From: Sphyrna mokarran
Taxonomy: Eukaryota
Assembly (NCBI GenBank): GCA_024679065.1
Contig: JAGIQG010000009.1
Span: 107,260,001 to 107,324,000, forward strand
Direction: 5' to 3'
DNA length: 64,000 bases
The notes below the pieces were generated by a model, which ran no database searches, was not told the DNA's origin, and was given only the letters and a program-made list of their open reading frames with translations. A program made the position numbers and the translations under genes. This document shows, in pieces, positions 1,408 through 39,172 of this stretch (position 1 is the first letter of the stretch; every line of letters starts with the position of its first letter).

Positions 1408-1530
1408 GTGTTACATCAAAAACAAAATGCTCGATTAATGATGTGCTTCTTGGAGTATTGGCTACAGTGATAGGATTGCTTTGTATTTTACTAACTATAG
1501 TGTCACTGCTTCTCCACCAGAGAAAAAAAG
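1408..1530 (+). CDS. Gene A stalk+transmembrane exon of a type I membrane receptor, probable paralog of gene B (NCR3-like family); upstream exons lie outside the window
   Basis: Acceptor ctatcattttag and donor AAAG|gtattt flank a 123-nt phase 1-1 exon, (G)VTSKTKCSINDVLLGVLATVIGLLCILLTIVSLLLHQRKK. It has a ~24-aa uncharged hydrophobic run followed by a basic stop-transfer. Confidence 0.85.
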
Positions 1531-4482: not shown

Positions 4483-5560
4483 TCTATGTGTAACTTAGCT
4501 TTCTGCTTCCTCCTGAACTGTAGTTGGCCCATCTCACTCAATTTCCACTAAGTTCTTTTTCATTCCTTTATGCTTTGATGTAGTATAAGTGTTGCTGGCA
4601 AGGCCAGCATTTGTTGCCCACTCGTAAATGCCCTTGAACTCAATGGCTTATCATTACGTCATTCCATAGAGCATGTAATACTCAAGCTCATTGCTATGGA
4701 TCTGGTGTCACATATAGGCCAGTCTGAGTAAGGATGAGAAATTTCCATCATGAAAGATTATCAGAGAATGCAACAACTGATGAGAGTTTCATGGTCACCA
4801 TGGCAGAAGCACCCTTTATTTCCATGTTTAAATAAAACTTTTAAATTAAATGCCACGTTGCAATTTGAATTTAGGGATATCTAACTTGGCCACTGGATTA
4901 CCAGCCCAGTAACATTACCACTAAACCACACTCTGCACCACAACTCCTCTGCTGATTCTTAGCTGCACTGGAATGAAAAGCTGTCACGAATGTTCTCGAC
5001 GGTGAGGGAATCCAGGACGCCAATCTTAGTTTGAAGATAAGGGATAAACCACTTAGAACTGGTTTGAGGGGAAATTTCGTACCTAGAAATTAGTGAATGT
5101 ATGAAATTCACTACCACAGAAAGTAGTTGAGGCCAAAACGCTGAGTGATTTTTAAGAAGCTAAAGACCAAAGATGTGCGGGTTAGGTTGATGAGCCATGC
5201 TAAAAATTTCCCTTAGTATCCTGAGATGCGTAGGTTAGACAGATTAGTGGGTAAATATGTAGGAATATGGGGGTAGGGGCTGGGTGGGATTGTGGTCGGT
5301 ACAGACTCAATGGGCTGAATGGCCGCTTTCTGTACTGCATGATTTCTATGCTTTCTGTGATTTCTCTGAAGAAAGTAGACATAGCTCTTGAGGCTGAAGA
5401 GATCAAGGGATATGGGGGAGAGGTAGGATCAGGATATTGAATTTGATGATCAGCTGTGATCAAAATGAATGGTAGAGTTTGCTTGAAGGTATGAATGGCG
5501 TACTTCTGCTTCTAGTTTCTATGGTTCCATGTTTCTAACCATGTGCTTTCATCTCCATAG

Positions 5561-5595
5561 GCAGTTTGTGGCATACATCACAGAGAAGTCAACAG
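5561..5595 (+). CDS. Gene A cytoplasmic micro-exon 2 (35 nt)
   Basis: Acceptor gctttcatctccatag and donor CAG|gtaact. Phase 2-1, reads (R)QFVAYITEKST. Confidence 0.75.
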
Positions 5596-5787
5596 GTAAC
5601 TGATTTCTAACTTGTAGAAGGGAATTCAGACAATCACACGTGGATTTGAATGAGAAGTTCCTTTATCCCATTCTAACTCATGATTTGAAACAGTTTCTCT
5701 GCTGCATCTGTACTTCACTCCCTCTCAGAAAACTGATATGTTCCTTCTTTTCCTCTTTTTTTTTACCATTACCTTTTGCACGCAAAA

Positions 5788-7664: not shown

Positions 7665-7699
7665 AAACTCTCCCATTAAAGACCAAAGGGCGTCATAAG
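7665..7699 (+). CDS. Gene A cytoplasmic micro-exon 3 (35 nt)
   Basis: Acceptor ttatttatttccaatag and donor AAG|gtaagc. Phase 1-0, reads (E)TLPLKTKGRHK, keeping the frame open across all four exons. Confidence 0.75.
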
Positions 7700-8877
7700 G
7701 TAAGCTGAACCTTGATAGAATTTTCTACCGTTCATATATCCATTGAATTGTTGACTTGAGTCTCAGCAGCGCAGTAGTTAATACTTTCAGAAAACAATAG
7801 ATGTATTTCAGTATTGTTTTAGATTATTCATGCGAGAAAGTGTACAATTGATTCAGATGTCCCTAAATTTGACAGCATTAAAGGATTGGGCATTTTAAAA
7901 TGTGCATGCATTCGGACCTCATTCAATGCAACTTAGAGTTAATGTTAGATTTTATTTTTGCTTGAAGATGTTCATTAGAGGTTAACGTGCAGTTTTTAAG
8001 GATAACTGATTTTAATGTGAAAGAGCGGCTGCCCCATATGCTGATGTCCAAGAAATGTGATAATATCTTGGTAGGAATTCGGGGAATAGAACGGGCCCCT
8101 TATGCGAATGTTTCAATGAGTGTGTTGGACCCAATGAAAGTGAAACTATATAATGCGGCACAAGATCTACACAACGCTTATGACAACAGAGAAGCTTAAT
8201 ACATAGTGGTTGCATTACTGATGAATTGGCGACTGGATTTTAATATAGGGTATTCGCAATGGAAACCAGTTATTTACTTTGAACTATTTGAAACAGGCGT
8301 CACTAGCAATTAATAGTAAATGACCTTTCAGATTCTGCACACTGACAACAAGTAGAAAAGGATGCAGAAGATTGCACTGCATATAACTTTGGACCAGACA
8401 AAGTTGGGTTTAGTGAAGTTGGAGTTTGGAGTGACTAATATGAGATTGACTGGAGTTGATGTTTTGGTAGATTGTAAATCTCTGGAAGAAGACTTTCTCT
8501 TTGACGTTCTATATAATAAGAGCTCTGTCATTTCTTAAAATGTCATAACTAAAGACTCTTGGCAAATAGTTTGAAGCAACATGCAGGAAGAAAATGTATA
8601 CAGCATTTGTTATGACCTGAAATGTACTCTCCGAAAGGCTAACTACAGCAGCCTGAAATACAACGTTGCAGTGTTAATGTAGGTCTAATGATTAAACTTG
8701 AAATATAGTCCAATTCCCCCCTTCATGTGAAGTCTAATCAGATATCAACCTATTCCTTATTAGGTCTCATTGCAGCTTTACAAAATCTAGCGGGGAGTAA
8801 ATTATTGGCGTTAAACAATACAAGCAAGCAAATAATGGGTAGTTCTTACAATCAATTTCCTATCCTTTCTAGCTATA

Positions 8878-10195: not shown

Positions 10196-10973
10196 TTTCA
10201 TTGCAGTGTGAATGCAAGACTACCTGTGACTAATAAATAAAGTTTAACTTTAACTTAGTTAAGTTTAAGAAACAACTGATTATACTGTGCAACGAATATA
10301 ATTTTTACATCACTGAAAGCAACATATGAATTTATATTGTATTCTTGAACATAATTATCTGATAAATGAAAGGTGAGACCAATTTCCTTTATCCTGTTAC
10401 GGTTCGTTTGCAAATACCGCTTAGAAGTGTCTGGTAAGTAACCATGGTTACTGTGGTTATGAGACGACTTGAACGTTGCAAATAATTCATTCCCTTGCTC
10501 TTAAGTTGAACAAATAATCCTAGTATAAGTTCTTCGCGAGTTGCATTGCCTATTACTGTGTACATAGTTCATCTCTGGAGGCGGGCGAGGCTCCTAGAAC
10601 GGTATTTTCCGTTGGCCTGGGGGTGGGGGAAGGGGTAACTAGCTTCGCCCGAGCAAGACCGTCAAATAGCCTCTATCTATTAACTTATTGGTCTTTGTAT
10701 CTACCCCCGTGTCTTTCTGATTTATTTGGGAGATGTTCTTTAGGCCTCCTGCAGTTTCTAGGCGGCGGGAGGCGGCCCACCCTTAACCAGCGGCGGGAAC
10801 GTCTCTTCCCGTCGCTGTCAAGGGAACTTCTAATTGAATCCACCCCGTGCCGTCGGCAAATTCCGGGCGCGCCGTCGGCGGGAACGGAAAATCCGGCTGG
10901 TGAACAATGCACCTAAATGATTGAGACTGCCCAGGAGGACGCTGAAGGTTCACTGCATTCTTTGTTTTCAAAG

Positions 10974-11102
10974 CGCCGAGAGGACAGTGCTTCGAGCTCC
11001 GGCCAGGAAGGGAAGAAGAAGAAGAAGAAAAGGAAGGTGAAAGAGCTTCCCACCTCCCCGGATTACGTCCATGACGGCCGCCCCCAGGGAGCAAGACCCT
11101 AA
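10974..11102 (+). CDS. Gene A probable terminal coding exon (polybasic cytoplasmic tail)
   Basis: Acceptor cattctttgttttcaaag in phase 0 matches the preceding donor. Reads RREDSASSSGQEGKKKKKKRKVKELPTSPDYVHDGRPQGARP* in non-repeat sequence. Confidence 0.6.
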   Translation, partial: RREDSASSSGQEGKKKKKKRKVKELPTSPDYVHDGRPQGARP

Positions 11103-25470: not shown

Positions 25471-27177
25471 ATGGTCAAGTCTGTAGTTACCAGAGACATG
25501 GATGAGACTGGACAGCAGTTGAATTTGACCGAAGCTCCAAGGGATGGCTCCAAGGAGAGATTGAATACATTTAGTTTATGTTCCTTGGATTGTAGAAGTT
25601 CATGAATTGATTTGGATGTGCTTCTTTAATTATTTTAACAGGATTTATTTAGTGTGGTTAGAGAGAAAATGTTCACTCTGCTGAAGATATGTAAGAAAAA
25701 GGGAAGTAACTTTTAAAACAGATACAGGTCATTCAGAGGGGATGCTGCGAAACACTTCATGCAATAACTGGTGTAGTAAGACCATAATGATGGAGGATGT
25801 AGGATGTAGATATAGGCTATTCAGCCTATTTAGTCCACTCCACCATTAATTGAAATCATGATATTATAACACTTCTGCTCCAAAGATAGTTATTGTATTT
25901 ATCATCCACTCCCTTTCCCCTTAATTATTTGGTATTTTTGGATTACTATTACTGTCTTCCATCGTGAAGACTGACTCAATACTGAAATAACTCCGTGGCA
26001 ATTTCCCCATGATCATTTCCCCAGTTTCATTCTCCAGCGAGACTATGTTCACTTTTGACTTCTCCATTCTTTTTTATGCAATTAAATAAGCTTTATTCTC
26101 TGTGTTTTATGTTAGTTGCTAATTGATTCTCATAGTTTACCTTCTCTCTCTGCATTGTATTGCTGGTCACTCTTTGTTAGTTTTAAAAGTGTTCTCAATT
26201 CCCTGTTTTAGTACTAAGCATTGTACTGTTTTTTTTCCCCAGTTAACGCTATCCTTAATTCCTTTCATTAACCATGATGTGGAAATGCCGGCGTTGGACT
26301 GGGGTGGGCACAGTAAGAAATCTCACAACAGCAGTTTAAAGTCCAACATTTGGAATCATGAGCTTTCAGAGCGCTGCTCCTTCTTCAGGGGAGTCACTCA
26401 CCTTCTGGATGAGCAGCACTCTGAAAGCTGGTGATTCCAAATAAGCCTTTAATCTGGTGCTGTGAGACTTCTTGTTGTGTTCATTAACCATGGCTGATTT
26501 ATCCTCTTCCGAGACTCCATATTCCTGACCGTTGTATTAAGTACAATCTGAGATGGACTGATGTTTTGAATACCTCTGGATATTAAGGGGTATGGAGCTA
26601 TTCAGGTCCATATAGTGAAACTGCAGATTATTGAAATGATAACATAAAAAGACCGTATTAATCCATAGGATATATTCGAAAGTTTGAAATACTTACTATC
26701 TATTACTTTCTATCTACTTTATATTTTTCCCTGTGACAAGTTATAGAAAACTATTTATTCCAAATGACACTGAGCCCTACCATGCATGACTCGGGACACT
26801 GAATCTGAGAAAATGTCAAGCACAGAATTGCAGGGTTTATTGCAAATTTTATAGAATACTATGATCTGCAACAGAGATTTAAGATGATCAAGTATTTTAA
26901 TTTTTATTGGAAACTGAAAGCCATTAACTATAACTCACGCATTTATATTTTGGGATTGTGCTTGGATTATTATTACTTGTCAATAATACAATCAAATTGC
27001 GAAGATTACTTGAATCAAATACCAAGGGAGATAGCAAATGATCTTTCTCGTGAATTTAGCAGAAATATTCACGTAATGACATTTTCATTTATTGATTTAC
27101 ACTTTTTCTGCAAGTAGCGACCCTGTAGATCTCCTTTCCCACATTCTTCTGTTTCCCAATGTTGGTACAATACACAA

Positions 27178-27183
27178 TTTATT
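27178..27183 (-). terminator. Candidate polyadenylation signal of gene B
   Basis: AATAAA on the minus strand about 260 nt after the stop. Further AATAAA copies occur near 27090, 26905 and 26838, so the used site is unknown. Confidence 0.3.
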
Positions 27184-27439
27184 CATGAGAATGAAGGCCT
27201 GATCATAAGTTCTTGAGGAGGCGCAACGCCTCTTCAAGTTGAATAATTTCAAAGTTGGCGTATTCAGCAATTCAGAAATAATTGCATATTCACACATATT
27301 CATAGTTAACTCTGAACAAGTTTAATTATTAGCACTGTAATAGAGAACAAGGCAATCAGTGTGCCAGATACGGCTCAGTGCGAGGCAGGGTTTATGGAGG
27401 ATCGACATATTGCAGTATTTCAAGTTTCGTCCCACAGCT

Positions 27440-27559
27440 TCAGCGGATGGTGGCGTATTCGGTATGATTTGGGTCATTGATCATTTTCCTTGCCTTCTCA
27501 TGTTGCTTGATTTTCACTTTGGCGTTATGTTGAGAAATACTACCTCGATTAGAGTGAAC
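27440..27559 (-). CDS. Gene B terminal coding exon with ITSM
   Basis: T-rich acceptor ending gattattag, phase 0. Reads VHSNRGSISQHNAKVKIKQHEKARKMINDPNHTEYATIR*; TEYATI fits the ITSM consensus TxYxx(V/I). Confidence 0.82.
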   Translation of the reverse strand, partial: VHSNRGSISQHNAKVKIKQHEKARKMINDPNHTEYATIR

Positions 27560-30500
27560 CTAATAATCATCGCAATAAAATAAAAAAAATACGTTTCACC
27601 CGCAGTGCGCAGAGTTGCAGCCACGTCATTTCACGCGTTTGCACATCCTTAAGTTAGAAACAAGTGTCAAAGGACTCAGAGTAATGTGTAATCAGGAAAA
27701 GAAAAGATGCAGTATTAAGACGCGGAAAGAATTTTGCATCGCAAGTAGTGGCCCAGGTTGGTGCAGATGAGTTGAGACAAGTAAATACTTTGTAAATGTC
27801 GCCATAGTCCCAAAGAGCCATAGATTACTCTCCCTCTTGAGAGTTGACTAGTGACGTTTTGTCTACAACACAGACAGATCTACTTGTCTTATCGTGTCCT
27901 GTCCAATCTACAAGAACAACTCAACCAATAACAGTCCCGCACCGTTTGCTGTTGCTCTGCAAATATATCCTCTTTAGAAAAATTTCCAATCTCTATTTGT
28001 ATTAATTCTTATTGGTTCTAACTCTTGGGCAGCACGGTTAGTACAATGGTTAGCACTGCTGCCTCACAGCGCCAGGGTTCAATTATTGCCTTGGGTCTCT
28101 GTCTGCGTGGAGTCTGCACATTAAACCCTGTCTGCGTGAGTTTCCTTCTGGTACTCCGGTTTCCTCCCAGTGTAAAAGATGTGCTGGTTTGGTGCATTAG
28201 CCAAGCTGAATTGCGTCTCAGTGTACCTGAAGACACTGGACTGTGGCGACTAGGGGATTTTCACAGTAATTCCATTGCAATGTTAATGGAAGCCCAGTTG
28301 TGACATTAATAAATAAGTTTAACTTAAACTGAAACTCTGTTGATTGAATGTATTCTCCGGAAGTGAGGCCACACATCGTAGAATGGGAAACAGGGGGAAT
28401 AGTCATGTAAGAAATTAACCATTCTCCCTGGCATTATGCCTCCAAAATACAACATAAAAACTGGGGACGAGAAGCATGAACATATGCTGGCTAGCCACTC
28501 TGGAAAAAGAATTTTACCGAAAACAATTGGACAAAAGAGAAGTTAGGAAGGAAAATGTTTCACCTGTGAGACATATGTTCAAGAGAACCAATAGGCTGGG
28601 TAGACGTGATTAACGACAATCTGCCCACAAAACATATTGTGCCACTCCCTCGTGATAAATGAGGCTGAAACTTATATGTGTGGAATCAATGTAACTGCTA
28701 GACTACAGTTCAAAGTGCGCCTAGGGGAAACGTACCTTAGTAGAAAAAGGTTTTCTGTGTCCTAGGACTCTGATGAAAATGTGGAGCCTCGAAGCTGTTA
28801 TATTGAACATTTTGATTGTTTTTCGTAGGCAAACAAAATAGTTGAAGATATTTTCGTGGCTCACTTCCATTAGCGTAATTGCGGGCAACCTGAGAATCCA
28901 GATTTCAGCAAAATTGATCTGCTTGCTTCTGCCGATTCTGACACATAAAGGCTTCTTCCAATATCGAAGATGACCATTTGGCATAGATTAGTTCCTGCAT
29001 CATTTCAAATAGCAACAGATCAGATCCTGAATGGACTGAGCGTTGCTTAAATCTGAACTTCTCACGCACTTTGATCCTCAGTTAGCTTGCAATGCATCTC
29101 CGTATTGTTCAGGAGTAGTGATCCCTCACAACTTGCCAACACCCATTGCTTTTGCTTCTTGAACTCTGAGAAAATCCGAAAGTAACCCTTCCCAGATTGA
29201 AAAGGAAGCATTAGGAATCATTTTTGGAGTAAAGAAATTCCATCAATTCTTGTACAACAGGAAGTTCGCATTGTTAACGGACCATTGTGAATTAACTACT
29301 TTTTTTGGACCACACATGGGAATTCTGTCAGTTGTAACAAGTAGAATGAAAAGAGAGGCATTGCTTTTATCTGAACTACTTACATTATTGTGTCAACAAT
29401 CAAGTCTACATGGTAATGGAGATGGACTTTTAAGATTACCACTGCCAGCAATTCATCAAACTGCTCAACTGGGAATACTTTCTACATTGATCAAGCAGAA
29501 AACATATCAGTCACTTCCAAACAAGGGAGGCGGCACACTAGGAGTGATCCAATATATTTCAGAAGTGATGGATATGGTATTATGTGGAAAGACCTCAGAG
29601 TTAGAATAAAGCAGAAATCCTACTGCTCTGGGAAATTGGAATCAGTGTATGTTGACTGGGGGCTCAGAGAAGTTATTCCGCCTCCATCGAGGAAACAGGT
29701 ATTAGAAAAGCTATATGAGGATCATTATGGAGTGGTACACATAGAGGAAATACATGGGAATGGGTTGTAGAGGCGTAGTGATACATGCATGTGGATTTTG
29801 CAGAACCTTCTGAAGGATGTGAAATGTAGTTATTAGTCACAATTGGCTTACATTAACACTGCAATTAAGATACTGAGAAAGTCCTCTCTCTGGCACGTGT
29901 TCGGGTACGCTGAGAGAGATTCACCATGCCAACCATGTAAGCAGACTGTGGGAGGAAAGCGGAGCAACCAGAGAGAAAGTGCAGACTCTACAGACAGTGA
30001 CTTAAGCCAGGAATTGAACCTGAATCTCAGGCACCGTGAGGCAGCAGTGCTAACCACTGTGCCACCATGCCGTCAATATATTCTTGGTGTCGGTCGATAC
30101 TTACACAAGGTCAGAGATCGCTGTGATGATATCTATTTCACCGCAGAAAATGATTGAGAAGCTAGGAGAACTGTTTCATCATGTTACTTTCCCTGAACAA
30201 GTTATAAGTGGGTACGGATCTCAATTTGCTCTGAAAGAATTCAGAAGTTTCTTCCGAGAGAATGGTATCCAACTTATTAAATCCAGACTGTATCATCCTC
30301 TGACAAATGGGCATCACGGAATGTTTCACCCAAGCTATGAAACTTACGTTGAGAGCTACTAGAGAACAAGGTTATCTGATCAAATGACTTAACAAATTCC
30401 TATTGATGTACAGGAATACCGCACACTCCACGATCAAGACGCTTCTTGCCTTCTACACTCAATCTTTTGAAAGCTCTGAAAACTAAAGATATCGTCCAAC

Positions 30501-33500
30501 AGCAACACAGTAAGGACAAATGGACGAGCAGGAAAAGAAAGCTAAGCATAGAGTGTTTCACCCAGGGCAAGGATTTTCTTCTTGAAATTATTCTACAGGA
30601 GAAAAATTAGTTCCTGCGACAATGCTTGCAGAATAATGGTGAAGAGATGAGAATGGGGATCTCATGAATGAAATGAAGTTGCGGGGAATTGGGCAGGGCC
30701 TAACCTGAGGCTAGATTTCAGGGAAACGATGGAGACAGTATGATGGAAGATTTGACTTAGTTGATAAGAGGAAAATGGAAGGAAAGGTAGCACAGTGGTT
30801 AGCACTGCTACTTCATAGCGTCAGGAACTTGTGTTCAATTCGGGCCTCGGGTCACTGTTTTTGTGGCGTCTACACATTCTCTCCGTGTTTGCCTGTGTTT
30901 CCACTAGATGCTGCGGTTTTCTCCCACAGTCCAAAGATATGCTGGTTAGGTGGATTGGCCGTGCTAAATTGCTTCTTAATGTCAGGGGGGTCTTTAGGGT
31001 AAATGCATGGGATTATGGGGATAAGGCCGGAGTGGAATTATGGTCTGTGCAGTCTTGATGAGCCAAATGGCTTCCTTCTGCGCTGTAAGGATCCAATGAA
31101 TTCTAGGAATCTGACAACTGAAGAATTGGCCTCTATCATCGGAGAAAAAGCCTGAGGGTTCTTTCATTTGTTCCTGGAAATGGGACTGTAGGTAATGGGG
31201 GAAGTGATTTAAACTCGTAAAGAAAAGAAGAGGGCAGTTGTTGTTATCTTCCAGAATGATCCTGGAGTGGTTTCTGCTGGAGGGAAGTGAAGCTTTTGAA
31301 AATTTAATGTGGGAAGTCATATCTGGCAAATAATTAATCCGGTTGCTCCCACGTGACCACTTAAAAGTCATGCAAGTTGGCACCACGCCATAGGGAAAAA
31401 CGACAATGAGAAATTGTTAAGTTTATATTGTTTAGAAATATAAATAAATTTTTAAAAATTTTTTTTTAAAAAGTAGTTATTCATGGAGTTAGAATATTTG
31501 AAAACACCTAAAGTAGTATCACTTAAATTGTGTGTAATAAGAAGAGAAAAGACACCACAATGAAATGAGGTATGTTTGAGTATAGCACCACAAATGGTTA
31601 ATGTATGTTTGTGTTTATTCGGATGACAATCAGCAATGCAGCCTAATAGAACTCGTTGTTGCAACCTCGGTATGTACCACGGTGCAATACTTCCGGATCT
31701 GCTATAGTCCAGAAGGTGAATTTGCCTCTACTCTACTTGATCAACATCCTGACGCAGGAAACTTGGAAAGACCCTTATTTGCATACGTCTGCTTATCTCA
31801 TTTCGGACTTGCGACCTTTGAGACTGAGATTCAATATTTTACTGTATATGGTTTACGGTTGATTTAATTTGGTAGTAATATATAAACATTTTTCTCCCAT
31901 ATTGATGTAACAGATTCAAACCTTCACAAGCATATTTAGGTATTGAAAGCCGGGATAGAATAGAGCTAGAGATAAAATACAGCGAATTCGTAGAAAACTA
32001 TTGCTTATCTCAATGTTCTTACCTGTGTCGCTGACTGAAGATCGGCTGATGCTGTGGAAATAGCATTGAGAGATGGGTCAGAGCTAAACAGTGCCACAAA
32101 CATAGAGACACACATAGACACACGTAGCAACGGAGATTGACTTTCTTCGACTGAAACTATTTGTAAATGTATTTTTTGTTTTAGATTTGTTTTCAATTAG
32201 CCACGAATAGTAATTAATGCAGAATACATAGAAGTCACATACCAAGTACCGTATCAATTTCATCGTGCTGTCTGTAAGAAGCAAAATATTGTTTAAATTT
32301 AAAGTTCTGCACATTATGTTCTAAGTAATCACCAATTTGATAAAATTCGGTATTTTTTTACCTTCTTAGTCTCCGGATAACTGAAAGAAAAATAATGTTT
32401 ACGTTAATGTAGTCGTTTGAATCTGCTTCTTATTAAAACATAAAATTGATCTTTAACACGGATATAGAGAAACTGACTGTGATACATATGCATGGATGAA
32501 TGCATGGAGGTGGTGCTGCCTCACAGTGCCAGAGACCCAGTTCGATTCCAGCCTCATGTGACTGTTCATGTGGAGTTACATAGAACACAGAACATAGAAT
32601 CCAACAGTGCAGAAACAGGTCCTTCGGCCCATCAAGTCTGCACCGACCACAATCCCACCCAGACCTTATCCCCACTCCCCGTACACATTTACCCACTAAT
32701 CCCTCTAACCTATAGATCCCAAGACACTAAGAGGCAATTTTAGCATGGCCAATCAACCTAAACCGCACATCTTTGGACTGTGGGAGGAAACCGGAGCATC
32801 CGGAGGAAACCCACGCAGACATGAGGAGAATGTGCAAACTCCACACAGACAGTGACCCGAGACGGGGATCGAACCCAGGTCCCTGGAGCTGTGAAACAGC
32901 AGTGCTAACCACTGTGCTACCGTGCCGCCCAGAAGATTCACTGCATGTCTCGATTCAGCAAAATTGACACATTCTTCCTATGTCTGCGTGGAATTTCTCC
33001 GGATGCTTCTATTTCCTCCCAAATCCAAAATGTGCAAGCCGGGGAGGGGGAGGGGGTGAGGTGGCGGCGGGGGGGGGGGGTAGCAGTGGTGTTGGGGGGG
33101 CGGAATTGGCTATGTTAAATTTCCTCTTAGTGACCCAGGATATGTAGGTGAGGGTGATTGGCGTAGTAAATATGTAATGTTCTGTGGTGTGGAAAATTTC
33201 GAAGAGAGTTAGTATGAACTCGATAGGCTGAATAGCCTTCTTTTGCACTGTAGGGATTCCTTCTTTATGCATTCGTGGGACATGGGCTGACTGGTTAGCA
33301 TTTATTGCCTATCCCTAGTTACTCGAGGCAGTAGGGAGTCAACCACATTGCTGTGGCTCTAGAATCCCATGTAAGCCAGACCAAGCAGCAACGGCAGACT
33401 TCCTTCCCTAAAGGACATCAATAAACCAGATGGGTTTTTTTCTGACAACCGTTTTTATGGTCATCAGTAGATTCTCAATTCCAGATATATTTTATTGAAT

Positions 33501-36500
33501 TCAAATTTCACCATCTGCTGTAGCGGGATTCAAACCTGGGTCCCCAGAACATTAGCTGAGTTTCTAGATTATTAACCTATCGGCAATATCACTAGGCCAC
33601 CGTCTTGTCTGGGTCCCTGATGGTATTTCCTTCTTCATTGAACTAAGGCATTTCACATCGATCAAGAAAGGTGGACTTTTGTCTTTAGAGACAAAAGGCT
33701 GTGATGAGATTTTTCATTTATTCAAATTCTCCAGGGGACTGGCAAGAGTAAATATTGTCAATAGTACGTTTAGTGAGAGGACCTAGATCCAGAGAGCACA
33801 GATTTAAATGACTGGCAAATTTAAGTGATTTAGCTGAAAAGCGATGGCGACAGAAGGAAAATATTTTATCACACGATTAGTTAGGATCTGGAATGCACTG
33901 CCTGAGATTATGAATGAATCAGATTTACTCGAGGTTTCCAAAACTGATTTGGATTATTACCTGTAAATGTGGAGAAGGCCAGCAAGTGACAGTAGATCAA
34001 TTGTTCTTACGTGGATCCACCACAGACACGACGGGCCGAATGGCGCCTTTCTGAATTGGAACAATTCTATAATTCTGAAGGGAATACCTAAGCGTGTTTT
34101 AAAATAATTGCTCATACTAATTGGGTTTCCGATCACACTAGAAAAAGTAACAAATTTGTTGGAAGCATTAACCATGGTTCTCATAGCAACCAGAGCAATT
34201 GCCCATACTATAGCGAAAACATATTAGTTAATAAGGTTGACAGGGCCACATACCTTTGTTTTGCCAGAACAGTCCACATATAAGGACAATAACGGTTACA
34301 CTCAGAAAAACTGAAACACCTCCCAGTCCAAATATCGCATCAGGACCCCTGCTAATTTCCTTCGCAGTCTTGCCTGAAAATTTGATCGGAAGATGTTGTT
34401 TGCATTATGGAAAAGGCACGACTGTAAACATATATGTATAAACGAAGACATATATTTCTATAGCGCCTTGCACGACCTCAGTACATCCTAATTCACTTTG
34501 CAGCTGGCCGAGTACTCTGGAGGTGCGGCCACTTTTGCCATGTAGGAAGAACAACCGATTTGCCTACCGTAAGCTCACACAAATAGTCTTGCGAAACCGA
34601 GCAGAAATTTGTTTTTGTTTTATGATATTGATTGAAGGGCAAATATTGGCCAAGACATGGGGGATATCTGCCTTGAAATTCCTCGAAATAAGGTCAAGGG
34701 ACTTTTGCATTCACTTGGTTTAACGTTACCTGCAATAGTTGACACCTTGAACATGCAGCACAACCTCCGTAAGGCACTGAAGAGCCAAACAGGATTTTTA
34801 AATTTTTTATATGCATTTGTGGGACATGGGTGTTGCCGGCTGGCCAGCATTTATTGCTCATCCCTAGTCGCTCTTGAACTGAATGGCTTGCCAAGCCATT
34901 CCAGAGGACAGTGGAGAGTCAACCACATTGCTGTGCCTCTGAAGCCGGCCAGATCAGGCAAGAATGGTAGACTTCCTTCCCTAAAGGGCATTCGTAAACC
35001 AGGTAGGTTTTGCTGACAACAGACAATGGTTTCATGGACATCAGTAGATTCCTAATTTCAGTTTTCTTCTTTGAGTTCAAATTCCACCATCTGACGTGGC
35101 AAGATTTGAATTCAGGTCCCCAGAATATGAGCTGAGTTTCTGGATTAATAGTCTAGCGATAATACCATTAGGCCATCACCTCCCCTTTGTCATACATATG
35201 ATTCTCTAACCTAGACTGCAAAAACTACAAAAGGTTGTGAACTTAGCCTCGTCCACCACGCAAAACAATCTCCCATTGACTGCACCTACATTTCCTGCTG
35301 TCTCGGGAACATAATCAAGAACTCCATTCACACCGGACATACGCCTTCAATCCACTTCCATCCGAAAAAAGATACAAAATTCTGAGAACAATCGACCGAA
35401 AAATAGCATCTTTCCTGCTGACATTTTGAATTGTCCTATCATAGTTTGGCTGAATGGAGTTTTAACTTTAATATGCTGAAAGCTCTTCAATCAAGCAAAC
35501 TTGAGCTTTGGGCTAAAGTTATTTCTTTCATTGGATTCCAGGCCAGAGGCCTGGAATTTGTCAAAGGACATAAGGTGTCAGATTCAACAGCTTATCGTTG
35601 GCAGGGATCAGTTGTAAACAGGGTCCTGTTTCTTAGCTGAGCATTCTAATATGAACAATATCCATTTTGATGATGAGGCCTGAAGTGAACAACGATTCTA
35701 TAGTTAGATTTGTTTGGCCTTTTCGAACGATGCAATTGGGGTCCTCATCACCAAGGAACATTTGGAGTTTTAACTCTGCTAACACAAGAGCTTGTTCAGG
35801 AAGGCAGAGTGAGGAACTTTGGAACAAAGCTCACAAGAAAAGACAACATCTGGAAGGAGAAGAGAACAGAGAACTGGCTCCATGTTACAACAAAATCCTG
35901 GCCAGGTTTTAATTGCAAGTGAAATGAACTTTAAGTAATGTAGCAGATAATGAGTTATGCATTGTAAGTATTGTTTAAGTAACTATAGAATAAAGGAAAT
36001 CGTGGTTAAATATTTAAAGTCAACTTTGTGTCTTTATTCGCTATAGAGGTCAAACACATAGGTTTGGGCAACAATATATTTAGCCGCTCTTTCTCTACTT
36101 CCTAGCTATTACTGTAACACTATATTCTTCACTGTCTCTTTCCTTTCTCCCATATGTACTCTATGAATGGTATGTTTTGTTTGTATAGCACGCAAAGAAA
36201 ATACTTTTCACTGTACCCAAATACATGTGAGAAAAACAAATCGAATTCAATCATGTGTCCTAGGCTGAGATTATAACGATCAAAATCAAAATGGAAGCTG
36301 GATAATTGCGATTGTAGTGTGCTTCTAGTAGCGATTCAGTGAAAGGGCGATGTCTTGATGCTTACTGCTACCTCTATACGTTTCTGTAGGCTCTCCCTAC
36401 ATTGGGCTTGATGGTCTGTATTGCTGCCTCCCAGCGCCAGGGACCCAGGTTCGATTCCCAGTTTGGGTCACCGTGTGTGTGGAGTTAGCACGTCCTCCAT

Positions 36501-39172
36501 GTCTGCATGGATTTCCTCTGGATGCTCTGGTTTCCTCTCAAAGATGTGCGGCTGAAGTGGATTGGTCATGCTAAATTGCCCCTTAGTGTCATGGGGACCA
36601 GCAGAATAAATATGTGGGCTTCTGAGGGTAGGACTTGGGTGGGATTGTTGTCGATGCAGGCTCCATTAACCAAATGGGCCCCCTCTGCAGTGTAGGGATT
36701 CTTAGATTCTATGACCCAGCTCTCTCTGTATTGACTCAGCTATCCCTGTATTGATGCTTCCATCCGTGTACTTCCGCCCTCCTCCCTGCATTGACTATTC
36801 GAGAGTTATGGTGTCATTTGGTAATTCTCAAATGGAGAATGCTCAACACTGAGCCCGATAGATCTAAAGGTCGGCTGCTTGATTCTAAGCCACGCCACAT
36901 CCCAACTCAACCTGGTCAGCATTGGACACAGAATTAGGTCTTATTGCATCCGAAACCAGTTCTCCATTGCGCTCCATTTTAGGTTCGAATGACGTTTACT
37001 CCATTGCACTGGCTTCAATACAATGGAATGCCCGCCATCTTGTATAACGGGCTGGAATTCCTCTACAATATGTTTGGCGTCAGCTCCTGCGCTGCACCCT
37101 TCTCAACTCCAGGCACAACTGCAGACACATTTTACTATAACCCGAAGATCTATTTTGAACGATTTGCGGGTTCGTGGTGCCCAGATTCCTGTATTGCAAT
37201 GAGGTCAGTAGAAAATTAAAGCAAAACGGATTCTGGGCCGGGGTGGTGGAATCACTGTGTGAAATAAGAGAAGTTTTTAAAGATCACTTCTTTCCACTCA
37301 TTACTTACGCTTCACTTTCAAATGGGTACCGCTTCCATTCCTCGCTCTTTCTCCCATTAAGGATACATGACAATAATATGTATCTGAATCTTCCTCAATC
37401 AACCTGGAGATATGAATATATATTACGTTGTTGGCAAATGATTCGCTCTCCGATCTGTTCAGCCGATCTTTATAAAATGGACTCTTGTCCAGTCTGTAGT
37501 CATTTTGTTCACCTCGTGTCCAATAAGTTGCTCCGATTAGGATTAGGTTTGCTTCAAATTTCAAGGTACAGTTCAGTGTCACCGACTCCCCCTCTGTTGC
37601 CGTTATAGAAGGAGGGAATTGATAAACTGCGAAATTCGTCTTCCCATCTGTTGGGAAAAACAATTCGACTGTAAACGGGATAATTCCCAAACGCTAGGTG
37701 CTACCAGCAATCTGAGTGGCTAAGTGTAATAAGTAACTCATAGAGATGGGAAGAAAATGAATCGAACAGCGCATTCTGGAAGGTCAAGTATACACCGAAA
37801 AAGAGTTTGAAATGTGTAAGAAACCAGCCAGTCTACAACAGAATGGCAGGTTGTTGTTGGATTGTGTGAATAGGTTAATGTTAGATTGGTTGTCATGTTA
37901 ATGCGGGTTAGATTATCAAGGTAACGTTGGGCTGAATTATTAGGTCAATGTGTTTTTTCTTAGCTGCTTATTGTTGTGTTGAGTTCGCAGATTAATGTTG
38001 TATTGTCAGGATAACGTTGGGTTGCGCAGGCAAATTAATTTTGTGTCATGTGGGCAGATTAATGTTGGGTAGAGTGGACAGGTTAATATTACATTATATA
38101 GATAGTTAATGTTGTGTTATCAGGTTAACATTTGGTTGTGTTATCAGGTTAATGTTGGGTTGTATGGGCAGGTTAATATTGGGTTGTGTCATCAGGTTAG
38201 CTTTGGTTGTGTTGTCAGGTTAATGTTAGGTTGTGTGACCAGGTTAATATTGAGTTGTGTGGACAAATTAATATTGAGTTGTGTGCCCAGGTTCATATTG
38301 GGTTGTTTGGGCAGGTAAACGTTGGGTTATGTGGGCAGATTAATTTTGGGTTGTGTAAGCAGATTAATGTTAGGTCGTGTAAGCAGGTTAATGTTGAGTA
38401 CTGTGGGCAGATTAATGTTGAGTTGTGTGGGCAGATTAATTTTGAGTTGTAATAGCAGGTAAACCTTTGTTTGCGCCATTCTGCCTCACTGAAGACTTGA
38501 ATAACACCAAAACTTGGGCTGAGAATTCGCGCCGTTACCCAAAAGCCATTGTAGGATACATCCCAGAAATGAAATAAAACAACGATTAGAAAATAATGAC
38601 CATGCTTAAACGATGACTAAAAAGAGGTGAATTTATAGAGCTCTCCATCCCACTGTCGAATAGAGAAACATGCTTCAGAATGACATATTTTGCACTGATC
38701 TCCGGAAATAATTACAGCCGTCACGAATTGTCCCTCAACCAGCTCACAGCCAGTAAAAAGTATATCCTAGAATTTCTTCAACGGGTTGCATCTACCTCCT
38801 GTTGCAGCTTCAGAGGGAAAATCGATCAACAGAAAGTGGATCGGGGTTCCCGAGAACCTTTGGAAAATTCTAACCCTTTGTCCGCTCAGCTCCGGAAAAC
38901 AATAGTAATCTTGCCGATAGGAGCGTGTTCTAATTCTAAACACAATGTCAATACTATCTTGTAACGGATGCAGCAACCCTCTGTAAACTATAGGGATGAC
39001 GGGAAAGTCGGAGTATTTTGCAAATCAGTTTCTGCAAAATTTGCGATTAAAATTAGCACGTCACTCAAGACTGTCGGTGTCATCCACAAGCAGTAAAAAC
39101 TAGAATTAACTCACCGGCGCGCGTCGCAAAGACAATGAACTGCAGGAGAGTGAGCTGTTGACTTAATGTCAT
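27440..39172 (-). CDS. NCR3: Gene B (spliced span): NKp30/NCR3-like single VJ-type Ig receptor with uncharged TM and C-terminal ITSM
   Basis: Leader, V, TM and 19-nt exons join in frame with canonical GT-AG sites, and the terminal exon ends in TEYATIR*. The family call rests on by-eye similarity of the V domain to NKp30; it is not a claim of one-to-one orthology. Confidence 0.72.
28027..28328 (+). mobile_element. HE1-related SINE variant with alternative 3' tail
   Basis: Same tRNA head, with tail cattgcaatgttaatg...aataaataa shared with 29830-30072(-), 45460-45756(-) and 48627-48908(+). Confidence 0.75.
28540..30640 (+). mobile_element. Decayed Ty3/Gypsy LTR retrotransposon pol (RT, RNase H, integrase) inside a gene B intron
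   Basis: THKGFFQYRR*PFGI (RT), [32 protein letters not shown] (RNase H), KQVLEKLYEDHYGVV and FPEQVISGYGSQF...YHPLTNG (integrase). Many disablements, with a SINE inserted at 29830-30072. Confidence 0.85.
30785..31100 (+). mobile_element. HE1-type SINE
   Basis: Full-length copy. Confidence 0.8.
32023..32150 (-). CDS. Gene B cytoplasmic exon(s), internal structure unresolved (likely two micro-exons, about 32124-32150 and 32023-32051)
   Basis: Acceptor atagtttcag at 32151 and strong donor CAG|gtaaga at 32022. An internal donor AC|gtgtgt and acceptor ctatttccacag define a possible 72-nt intron, giving SRRKSISVAT/ISRSSVSDT; the second part reads SADLQSATQ in another phase. Confidence 0.55.
32362..32380 (-). 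CDS. Gene B exon 4, 19-nt cytoplasmic micro-exon
   Basis: Acceptor ttatttttctttcag and donor AAG|gtaaaa. Phase 1-2, reads (V)IRRLR(S). Confidence 0.75.
32579..32930 (-). mobile_element. Well-preserved HE1-type SINE nested in an older sense copy (32505-32578 plus 32968-33262)
   Basis: Intact head gggcggcacggtagcacagtggttagcactgctg and tail. The flanking sense fragments are consecutive parts of one SINE. Confidence 0.85.
34254..34373 (-). CDS. Gene B exon 3, stalk+transmembrane
   Basis: Acceptor caaattttcag and donor AAAG|gtatgt, 120 nt, phase 1-1. Reads (R)KTAKEISRGPDAIFGLGGVSVFLSVTVIVLICGLFWQNK with no charged residue in the hydrophobic core. Confidence 0.88.
36408..36714 (+). mobile_element. 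HE1-type SINE
   Basis: Body and tail match the family. Confidence 0.78.
37309..37647 (-). CDS. NCR3: Gene B exon 2, germline-joined VJ-type Ig V-set domain, NKp30/NCR3-like
   Basis: Acceptor tttttcccaacag and donor AAGC|gtaagt, 339 nt, phase 1-1. Carries B-strand Cys (VTLNC), C-strand Trp (IGATYW), EDSDTYYC and J-like NGSGTHLKV. The pattern Q.PP.I...EG.S..L.C, IG...W.R, RL, HI and V..G....G.GT.L.V parallels NKp30. Confidence 0.92.
37846..38462. repeat. 24-bp minisatellite in gene B intron 1
   Basis: About 25 diverged units of consensus gcaggttaatgttgggttgtgtgg. It explains the 8-aa periodic ORFs (CGQVNVGL). Confidence 0.9.
39115..39172 (-). CDS. Gene B exon 1, signal peptide
   Basis: ATG at 39172, reads MTLSQQLTLLQFIVFATRA, then phase-1 donor CCG|gtgagt. 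58 nt, typical IgSF leader exon. Confidence 0.88.

What the first reader, a model, noticed from the sequence alone, without database searches (positions are those of the whole stretch)
27440..39172. NKp30-type Ig domain wired to a PD-1-identical ITSM (TEYATI)
Seen: leader, VJ domain, uncharged TM, and a last exon ending NHTEYATIR*. Established: TEYATI is the PD-1 ITSM that recruits SHP-2, whereas mammalian NKp30 is activating via a TM Arg; both NKp30 and PD-1 bind B7-family ligands. The V domain looks more like NKp30 than PD-1, and I found no upstream PD-1-type ITIM. Inference: an inhibitory or switchable NKp30-family checkpoint receptor with no known mammalian NCR3 counterpart, relevant to the origin of CD28/PD-1/NKp30 receptors.
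Basis: partly seen in the sequence, partly recalled or inferred. Interest (0 to 1): 0.8.

Follow-up and report, generated by a model that had tools for sequence, protein, structure and literature searches.

The report
Shark inhibitory-type NKp30 family receptor
This is an intact shark immune-receptor gene of the NKp30 (NCR3) family, of a subtype already deposited from nurse shark, whose tail likely sends a braking signal; its exact match to the human PD-1 motif is not conserved among sharks and the real PD-1 gene lies elsewhere in the genome, so it is a fairly ordinary member of a known family.

Summary
The gene is real: 7 exons on the minus strand, all GT-AG and in frame, giving 237 aa (leader, joined VJ domain, uncharged TM, tail ending HTEYATIR). 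It lies in a cluster of joined-VJ exons on the contig that holds all 53 MHC class I hits. It groups (99/98) with nurse shark QTT61901.1, deposited as NCR3 (129/234 identical, tail HVEYATIY). True PD-1 is on another contig and reads SYYATI. The PD-1 identity hangs on one variable residue: across 9 tails of this subtype, pY-2 is Thr in 2, Val in 4, and Ile, Ala or Asp in one each. Six of 9 carry a second tyrosine 23 residues upstream, a bis-tyrosine module like that of SIRP-alpha or PD-1; this copy has Asn there. Best reading: a likely inhibitory NCR3 subtype recruiting SHP-1/SHP-2, probably weakened in this copy; a SAP switch is unlikely. Side finding: a neighbour with a 72% identical V exon has an Arg-bearing TM exon, a candidate activating partner. 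Kinlein 2021, the key paper, could not be read.

The parts
39115..39172 (-). Exon 1, leader (19 codons, phase-1 donor)
   Evidence: 15 of 19 identical to Mustelus P0001
37309..37647 (-). Exon 2, single-exon joined VJ-type Ig domain with G-x-G in the G strand
   Evidence: V-set, 43.5 bits; tree
34254..34373 (-). Exon 3, short stalk and uncharged transmembrane helix
   Evidence: 25 of 40 identical to P0001
32362..32380 (-). Exon 4, 19-nt cytoplasmic micro-exon
   Evidence: kept in the paralogue and in P0001
32243..32271 (-). Exon 5, 29-nt micro-exon; carries a Tyr in 5 other sharks, not here
32023..32051 (-). Exon 6, 29-nt micro-exon, phase-0 donor
27440..27559 (-). Exon 7, coding part: tail with the lost and the kept tyrosine motif, then stop
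   Evidence: RNA-like contigs of a related species stop at 27560-27561 (weak hint)
27515..27532 (-). Degenerate upstream ITIM, QHNAKV (Asn210 where 6 of 9 tails have Tyr)
   Evidence: 27526 reads T>A in 4 of 4 runs of two other organisms
27446..27463 (-). TEYATI motif (Thr231, Tyr233), one residue before the stop
   Evidence: 27463 reads T>C in 4 of 4 runs
27178..27183 (-). Candidate polyadenylation signal AATAAA, about 260 nt after the stop
   Evidence: use not tested

Best explanation
The gene encodes a single-VJ-domain, uncharged-TM receptor of the MHC-chromosome NCR3/NKp30 family, of the same subtype as nurse shark NCR3 QTT61901.1, that likely works as an inhibitory receptor on NK-like or T cells. 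Inferred steps: ligand binding (ligand unknown, possibly a B7-H6-type molecule) would cluster the receptor; a Src-family kinase would phosphorylate Tyr233; the pY-A-T-I core would bind an SH2 domain of SHP-2 or SHP-1, which would dampen ITAM signals from Arg/Lys-TM NCR3 neighbours or the TCR. The ancestral tail has two tyrosines 23 residues apart, predicted to engage both SH2 domains; this copy has lost the first and ends at pY+4, so it is predicted to bind the phosphatase with one SH2 domain and more weakly. The Thr that makes it an 'ITSM' is a lineage-specific substitution in an ITIM, not PD-1 ancestry.
For: Shown: exon structure and open frame; gapless match to the Mustelus model; clade of 8 rows with nurse shark NCR3 at 99/98; 129 of 234 identical to it over the full length; 53 of 53 MHC class I hits on the same contig, nearest 11.4 Mb away; 19 V-type exons in the local cluster and 16 beside the class I genes; NKp30 is the top solved-structure match for the cluster profile (95 bits, SIRP 75) and for the fold of the Mustelus orthologue (ranks 1-4); PD-1 found separately on contig C882; motif variation. 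From papers: activating NCRs need a TM Arg or Lys to pair with ITAM adaptors (PMC6514059, passages); Ala at pY+1 and Ile at pY+3 suit the SHP-2 C-SH2 domain, Phe at pY+5 adds binding, Glu at pY-1 disfavours SAP (PMC12151841, passages and section 21).
Against: No binding, phosphorylation or cell assay exists here. The single V exon alone does not pick NKp30: shark VNARs score as high (34.9 vs 33.9 bits), and this subtype is among the more divergent (33% to the NKp30-like exon L010), so B7-H6 binding is open. pY-2 is Asp or Ala in 2 of 9 tails, outside the ITIM consensus, and one catshark model (P0002) stops just before the tyrosine, so selection on a canonical motif is loose. The gene is 11.4 Mb from the nearest class I gene: same contig, not tight linkage. 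No RNA of this species was found. Window, paralogue, Arg-TM neighbour and Mustelus V exons are unresolved in the tree, so one-to-one orthology is not shown.
Confidence: 0.72

Rival explanations
1. It is a weakened or near-silent decoy: the copy has lost two of the three tail tyrosines found in other sharks, so it would mainly compete for ligand or use the remaining Y-x-x-I for endocytosis.
For: Only one Tyr in the tail against two to four in the Mustelus, bamboo, horn and catshark proteins; protein ends at pY+4; catshark models include TM-less and Tyr-less forms.
Against: The last motif is intact in 9 of 9 tails that reach it, including all 3 that lost the upstream Tyr; splice sites and frame are perfect.
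Confidence: 0.17
2. It is a true switch receptor: the Thr lets SAP/EAT-2 compete with SHP-2 and turn the signal positive, as in SLAM receptors.
For: TEYATI fits the TxYxx(V/I) definition; Thr also occurs in bamboo shark.
Against: Thr in only 2 of 9 tails; Glu at pY-1 is argued to make such a switch unlikely for the same PD-1 motif (PMC12151841 section 21).
Confidence: 0.07
3. It is PD-1 or a PD-1 duplicate, or its tail was inherited from a PD-1-like ancestor.
For: EYATI core shared with bony-vertebrate PD-1; two tyrosines 23 apart against 25 in human PD-1.
Against: PD-1 V, TM and last exons are on C882; its V domain is the only 1 of 36 rows with no BLASTP hit to the window V at E<=10; shark PD-1 reads SYYATI; similar paired motifs occur in SIRP-alpha and other unrelated receptors.
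Confidence: 0.02

Closest known systems
Nurse shark NCR3, QTT61901.1 (P0003)
   Same: Same subtype: 238 vs 237 aa, 129 of 234 identical, uncharged TM, Asn in place of the upstream Tyr, C-terminal EYATI one residue before the stop.
   Different: Val at pY-2 (canonical ITIM) and an extra Tyr in the micro-exon region; this species has a duplicated gene.
Human NKp30 (NCR3)
   Same: Single joined VJ domain, best structural match, MHC chromosome.
   Different: Human NKp30 has a TM Arg and no signalling motif of its own (PMC6514059); this one has an uncharged TM, three micro-exons and a tyrosine motif.
PD-1 (PDCD1)
   Same: IgV-TM-tail layout; EYATI core; Y-Y spacing 23 (ancestral tail) vs 25.
   Different: Separate gene on C882; no detectable V similarity; no (I/V)(D/E)YG(E/V)L(D/E)F ITIM; no Phe at pY+5; short stalk.
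SIRP-alpha bis-tyrosine module
   Same: ITYADL ... NHTEYASI with tyrosines 24 apart (PMC5589908 methods passage) against LHYAKV ... EYATI 23 apart; SIRP V is the second-best family by profile and fold.
   Different: One Ig domain, one tyrosine pair, MHC chromosome; the resemblance was judged by eye, not by an alignment tool.
ITIM-tailed NCR3-like models of lungfish (XP_043938374.1) and bichir (XP_039626090.1)
   Same: VJ domain, uncharged TM, paired motifs 22 residues apart.
   Different: They fall in another clade of the V tree; the names are automatic or absent, and nothing functional is known to me.

Membership tests
NCR3/NKp30 family | Single non-rearranging VJ-type V domain in one exon, followed by TM | tested here: met
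NCR3/NKp30 family | MHC linkage | tested here: met
   53 of 53 class I hits on the same contig, nearest 11.4 Mb away; class II search rang nowhere and is uninformative
NCR3/NKp30 family | Groups with deposited shark NCR3 sequences | tested here: met
   99/98 clade with QTT61901.1; human NKp30 was not in the tree
NCR3/NKp30 family | V domain closest to human NKp30 among solved structures | tested here: met
   profile of 15 cluster sequences and fold of the Mustelus orthologue; the single exon alone is inconclusive
Mammalian activating NKp30 | Arg in the TM for ITAM adaptor pairing | tested here: not met
   neighbours L003 (Arg) and L004 (Lys) do have a charged TM
NCR3/NKp30 family | Binds B7-H6 | not tested
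   no shark B7-H6 sequence was obtained, no complex was folded
PD-1 | PD-1 genomic locus and V-domain similarity | tested here: not met
   PD-1 on C882; no BLASTP hit between the V domains
PD-1 | ITIM (I/V)(D/E)YG(E/V)L(D/E)F plus (T/V)EYATIx(F/Y) | tested here: not met
   no first motif, no pY+5 residue (consensus from PMC12151841)
ITSM switch receptors (SLAM type) | Conserved TxYxx(V/I) with hydrophobic pY-1 for SAP binding | tested here: not met
   Thr in 2 of 9 tails, Glu at pY-1
ITIM-bearing inhibitory receptors | Phosphotyrosine-dependent SHP-1/SHP-2 recruitment and inhibition | not testable with these tools
   motif only
Paired receptors | Linked genes with similar ectodomains and opposite signalling modules, both expressed | tested here: inconclusive
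   72% identical V exon with an in-phase Arg-TM exon 1.5 kb downstream; no convincing leader or tail exon and no homologous protein found

The most novel reading that the evidence does not exclude
Sharks keep a paired NKp30 system on the MHC chromosome: this subtype is the inhibitory arm, with an ancestral SIRP-alpha/PD-1-like bis-tyrosine module (Y-x22-Y) conserved from hexanchiform and saw sharks to carcharhiniforms and eroded more than once, while a neighbour uses a near-copy of its V exon on an Arg-bearing TM as the activating arm for the same ligand. With the ITIM-tailed NCR3-like models of lungfish and bichir, inhibitory NKp30 would be an ancestral jawed-vertebrate state that mammals lost.
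Probability: 0.3. Interest if true: 0.5.

Novelty: new member of a known kind. Interest (0 to 1): 0.25.

Why it matters
Modestly. It adds a species to a deposited shark NCR3 subtype and shows that the PD-1 match is an accident of one residue. The useful part is the natural series of tails (two tyrosines or one; Val, Ile, Thr, Ala or Asp at pY-2) and a candidate activating twin, which make the question of inhibitory NK receptors in sharks testable with simple chimeras. It gives no new evidence on the origin of PD-1.

Tried and rejected
Kinlein et al. 2021 (shark NCR3 family) was not held under DOI, PMC id or PubMed id; Flajnik 2012 and Ohta and Flajnik 2015 were not held either. So I cannot say whether the tyrosine motifs of this subtype are already discussed in print; five searches of the held library listed no paper devoted to ITIM-bearing shark NCR3, which is weak because the key papers lie outside it. 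No RNA holder listed for this species. The exon 6 to exon 7 joint was not seen directly: only 27000-28200 was laid. The pattern for (T/V)EYATIx(F/Y) gave 10 genome matches against 5 in the control and did not find PD-1; a pattern from the catshark tail did (1 of 2 matches). MHC class II beta search rang nowhere. Search for short proteins with the Arg-TM neighbour's V gave 1 hit among 5 candidates, a TM-less catshark isoform; its TM exon hit no stored protein. Splice models B and D break the frame and were rejected; model C (shorter exon 5, exon 6 skipped) keeps it but lacks support, since P0001 has both exons. Earlier scan findings: none. No complex with B7-H6 or PD-L1 was folded.

Full report
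Observation. The gene lies on the minus strand. Seven exons with GT-AG introns give an open 237-aa protein: leader 39172-39115, VJ exon 37647-37309, stalk and TM 34373-34254, micro-exons of 19, 29 and 29 nt at 32380-32023, and last exon 27559-27440 ending NHTEYATIR-stop. The V exon is a Pfam V-set domain (43.5 bits). The TM has no charged residue. An NCBI model from Mustelus asterias (P0001) has the same length and aligns without gaps at 175 of 237 residues, micro-exons included. Contigs from three runs of one study, guessed to be RNA and from another species, cover the last exon and stop at 27560-27561 with 75 to 227 letters lying elsewhere, while a DNA-like run goes on into the intron. That is a weak hint of splicing at the predicted acceptor, from one study; two of the runs look like the same data. 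No RNA of this species was listed.

Family. A search of the own genome with the V exon gave 29 matches, 9 of them within 450 kb. A second query raised this to 19 V-type exons at 107.26-107.70 Mb and 16 at 96.26-96.87 Mb of the same contig, 35 of 62 matches, a lower bound as 150 of 305 candidates were scored. All 53 MHC class I matches lie on this contig at 85.8-95.8 Mb, the nearest 11.4 Mb away. Papers place NKp30/NCR3 among the joined-VJ genes of the MHC (PMC10751288 and PMC12227049, passages). A profile of 15 cluster sequences ranks human NKp30 first among solved structures (95 bits; SIRP 75). The predicted fold of the Mustelus orthologue (mean pLDDT 73.6, mostly above 90 in the V domain) has NKp30 at ranks 1-4, then SIRP-alpha, with no PD-1 in the rows shown. 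Against over-reading: the single exon scores VNARs as high as NKp30.

Subtype. The profile search found 13 shark proteins. One is nurse shark QTT61901.1, deposited as natural cytotoxicity triggering receptor 3: 238 aa, 129 of 234 identical to the window model, uncharged TM, tail HVEYATIY. In a tree of 36 V domains the window gene, two neighbours, and the Mustelus, catshark, horn, nurse and bamboo shark proteins form one clade (99/98; P0019, P0045 and P0067 failed the domain cut and were left out; P0020 and P0169 were not included). Eight nurse shark NCR3 accessions, MT914154-914161, are cited in PMC12227049. That QTT61901.1 is one of them, from Kinlein et al. 2021, is my inference; I saw only that paper's citation. 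That it reports eight MHC-linked subtypes, and that Xenopus has MHC-linked XMIV genes with ITIMs, is recall and was not confirmed (one search found no held paper with the term).

Not PD-1. A short pattern from the catshark PD-1 tail (supplement of PMC12151841, passages) found a last exon on contig C882 that matches that tail almost residue for residue by eye, with MDYAVL and SYYATIVF; its V and TM exons lie upstream. This V domain is the only 1 of 36 rows with no BLASTP hit to the window V at E<=10. Shark PD-1 was already described (PMC12151841, part 2 of 8, section 21, passages; PMC11599192, parts 1-3 of 6, passages), and both papers say that the ITSM threonine is absent or divergent in fish.

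The motif. Nine tails of the subtype reach the last tyrosine: window, own paralogue at 107.38-107.39 Mb, Mustelus, catshark, nurse, bamboo, horn, Heptranchias (P0169) and Pristiophorus (P0020; the last two assigned by sequence score and tail likeness, not by tree). Dropped: P0002 and P0007 (stop just before the Tyr), P0017 and P0019 (other last exon), and repeat isoforms (horn P0014-P0016, catshark P0006). EYA[TS]I is in 9 of 9. pY-2 is Val in 4, Thr in 2 (window, bamboo), Ile, Ala and Asp in 1 each. In 4 of 4 runs from two other organisms the first base of the Thr codon differs, so it is not Thr there either. Six of 9 have a second tyrosine 23 residues upstream (YAKV, YVQV or YAQL; a canonical ITIM in 4 of the 6); the window, its paralogue and nurse shark have Asn. 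The first base of that Asn codon reads as for Tyr in 4 of 4 runs (the table was cut, so the other two bases are not certain). The ancestral tail is thus a bis-tyrosine module, spaced like SIRP-alpha (24; PMC5589908, passage) and PD-1 (25). SIRP-alpha's NHTEYASI matches this tail at 7 of 8 residues, more than human PD-1 does (6 of the same 8). A different receptor-like tail on C871 also carries TEYATI. The core is therefore a recurrent SH2 ligand, and the Thr is a local substitution.

Mechanism. Shown: uncharged TM, one conserved tyrosine motif, loss of the upstream tyrosine in this copy. Inferred from known families: activating NCRs need a TM Arg or Lys (PMC6514059, passages), so this one should not pair with ITAM adaptors; pY-A-T-I suits the C-terminal SH2 domain of SHP-2, Phe at pY+5 adds binding, and both PD-1 tyrosines act together (PMC12151841). 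I expect ligand-driven phosphorylation of Tyr233, recruitment of SHP-2 or SHP-1 and damping of nearby ITAM signals (0.72), probably weaker here than in two-tyrosine orthologues. A decoy role is the main rival (0.17). A SAP switch is unlikely given Glu at pY-1 (0.07). The ligand is unknown.

Neighbours. The paralogue is an inverted whole-gene duplicate, 70-80% identical across introns, with all 7 exons in frame and IEYATI. A third gene at 107.357 Mb shares only the V exon and about 220 nt of upstream intron (72% aa, 79% DNA) and has, 1.5 kb downstream and in phase, a TM exon with LLR near its start. The gene at 107.68 Mb has a TM Lys. This looks like a paired-receptor layout, but I found no convincing leader or tail exon for the Arg-TM gene and no homologous protein, so it may be a pseudogene. 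Lungfish and bichir models with VJ domain, uncharged TM and paired motifs 22 apart suggest that ITIM-tailed NCR3-like receptors are not confined to sharks; their names are automatic or absent.

Verdict. Interest 0.25. The unread Kinlein paper and its supplements may already cover the tail motifs.

Noticed in passing
window 1408-1530, about 5545-5600, 7665-7700 and 10970-11100 (+); V exon in L013/L029 just upstream of the window: A second NCR3-cluster gene, matching catshark LOC119976033 (P0013): uncharged TM, micro-exons, lysine run and a single DYVH tyrosine in the tail.
   Followed up: partly
L003 / L026, G000:C1548:107357654-107358001 and 107355966-107356100 (-): V exon 72% identical to the window gene followed by an Arg-bearing TM exon; a broken copy of the same V exon lies 0.5 kb upstream. 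Candidate activating partner or pseudogene.
   Followed up: partly
L023-L024, G000:C1548:107381872-107393205 (+): Inverted duplicate of the whole gene; canonical ITIM IEYATI; TGC in place of the stop adds 17 residues from the Cys on, and a catshark model (P0018) is extended too.
   Followed up: yes
L004 / L033, G000:C1548:107679923-107682742 (+): Sister subtype with a Lys in the TM, kept in Scyliorhinus torazame (P0011) and in an unnamed protein (P0044).
   Followed up: partly
L054-L056, G000:C882:24261813-24276400 (+): The PD-1 gene of this genome: V, TM and last exon with MDYAVL and SYYATIVF.
   Followed up: yes
L048, G000:C871:26807363 (-): Last exon of another receptor-like gene with several tyrosine motifs (VYAVV, HYAEV, TEYATISF) and a C-terminal GTLV; not identified.
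   Followed up: no
G000:C1548:107456000-107644000 (-), L059-L062: A run of about 11 further joined-VJ exons, several closely alike, inside the cluster; TM and tails not modelled.
   Followed up: no
window 29163-30360 (+), inside intron 6: Broken reading frames that resemble the RNase H and integrase of an LTR retrotransposon (label from recall, no search run).
   Followed up: no
window about 37970-38460, intron 1: Minisatellite-like array of imperfect repeats of about 24 nt, partly shared with the paralogue's intron 1.
   Followed up: no
proteins P0006, P0007, P0002 (catshark): Database isoforms that skip the TM exon (would be secreted) or stop just before the last tyrosine.
   Followed up: no
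proteins P0092 (lungfish), P0077 (bichir), P0168 (turtle): VJ receptors with paired tyrosine motifs in the tail in bony vertebrates; the turtle tail ends in HTEYASV.
   Followed up: partly
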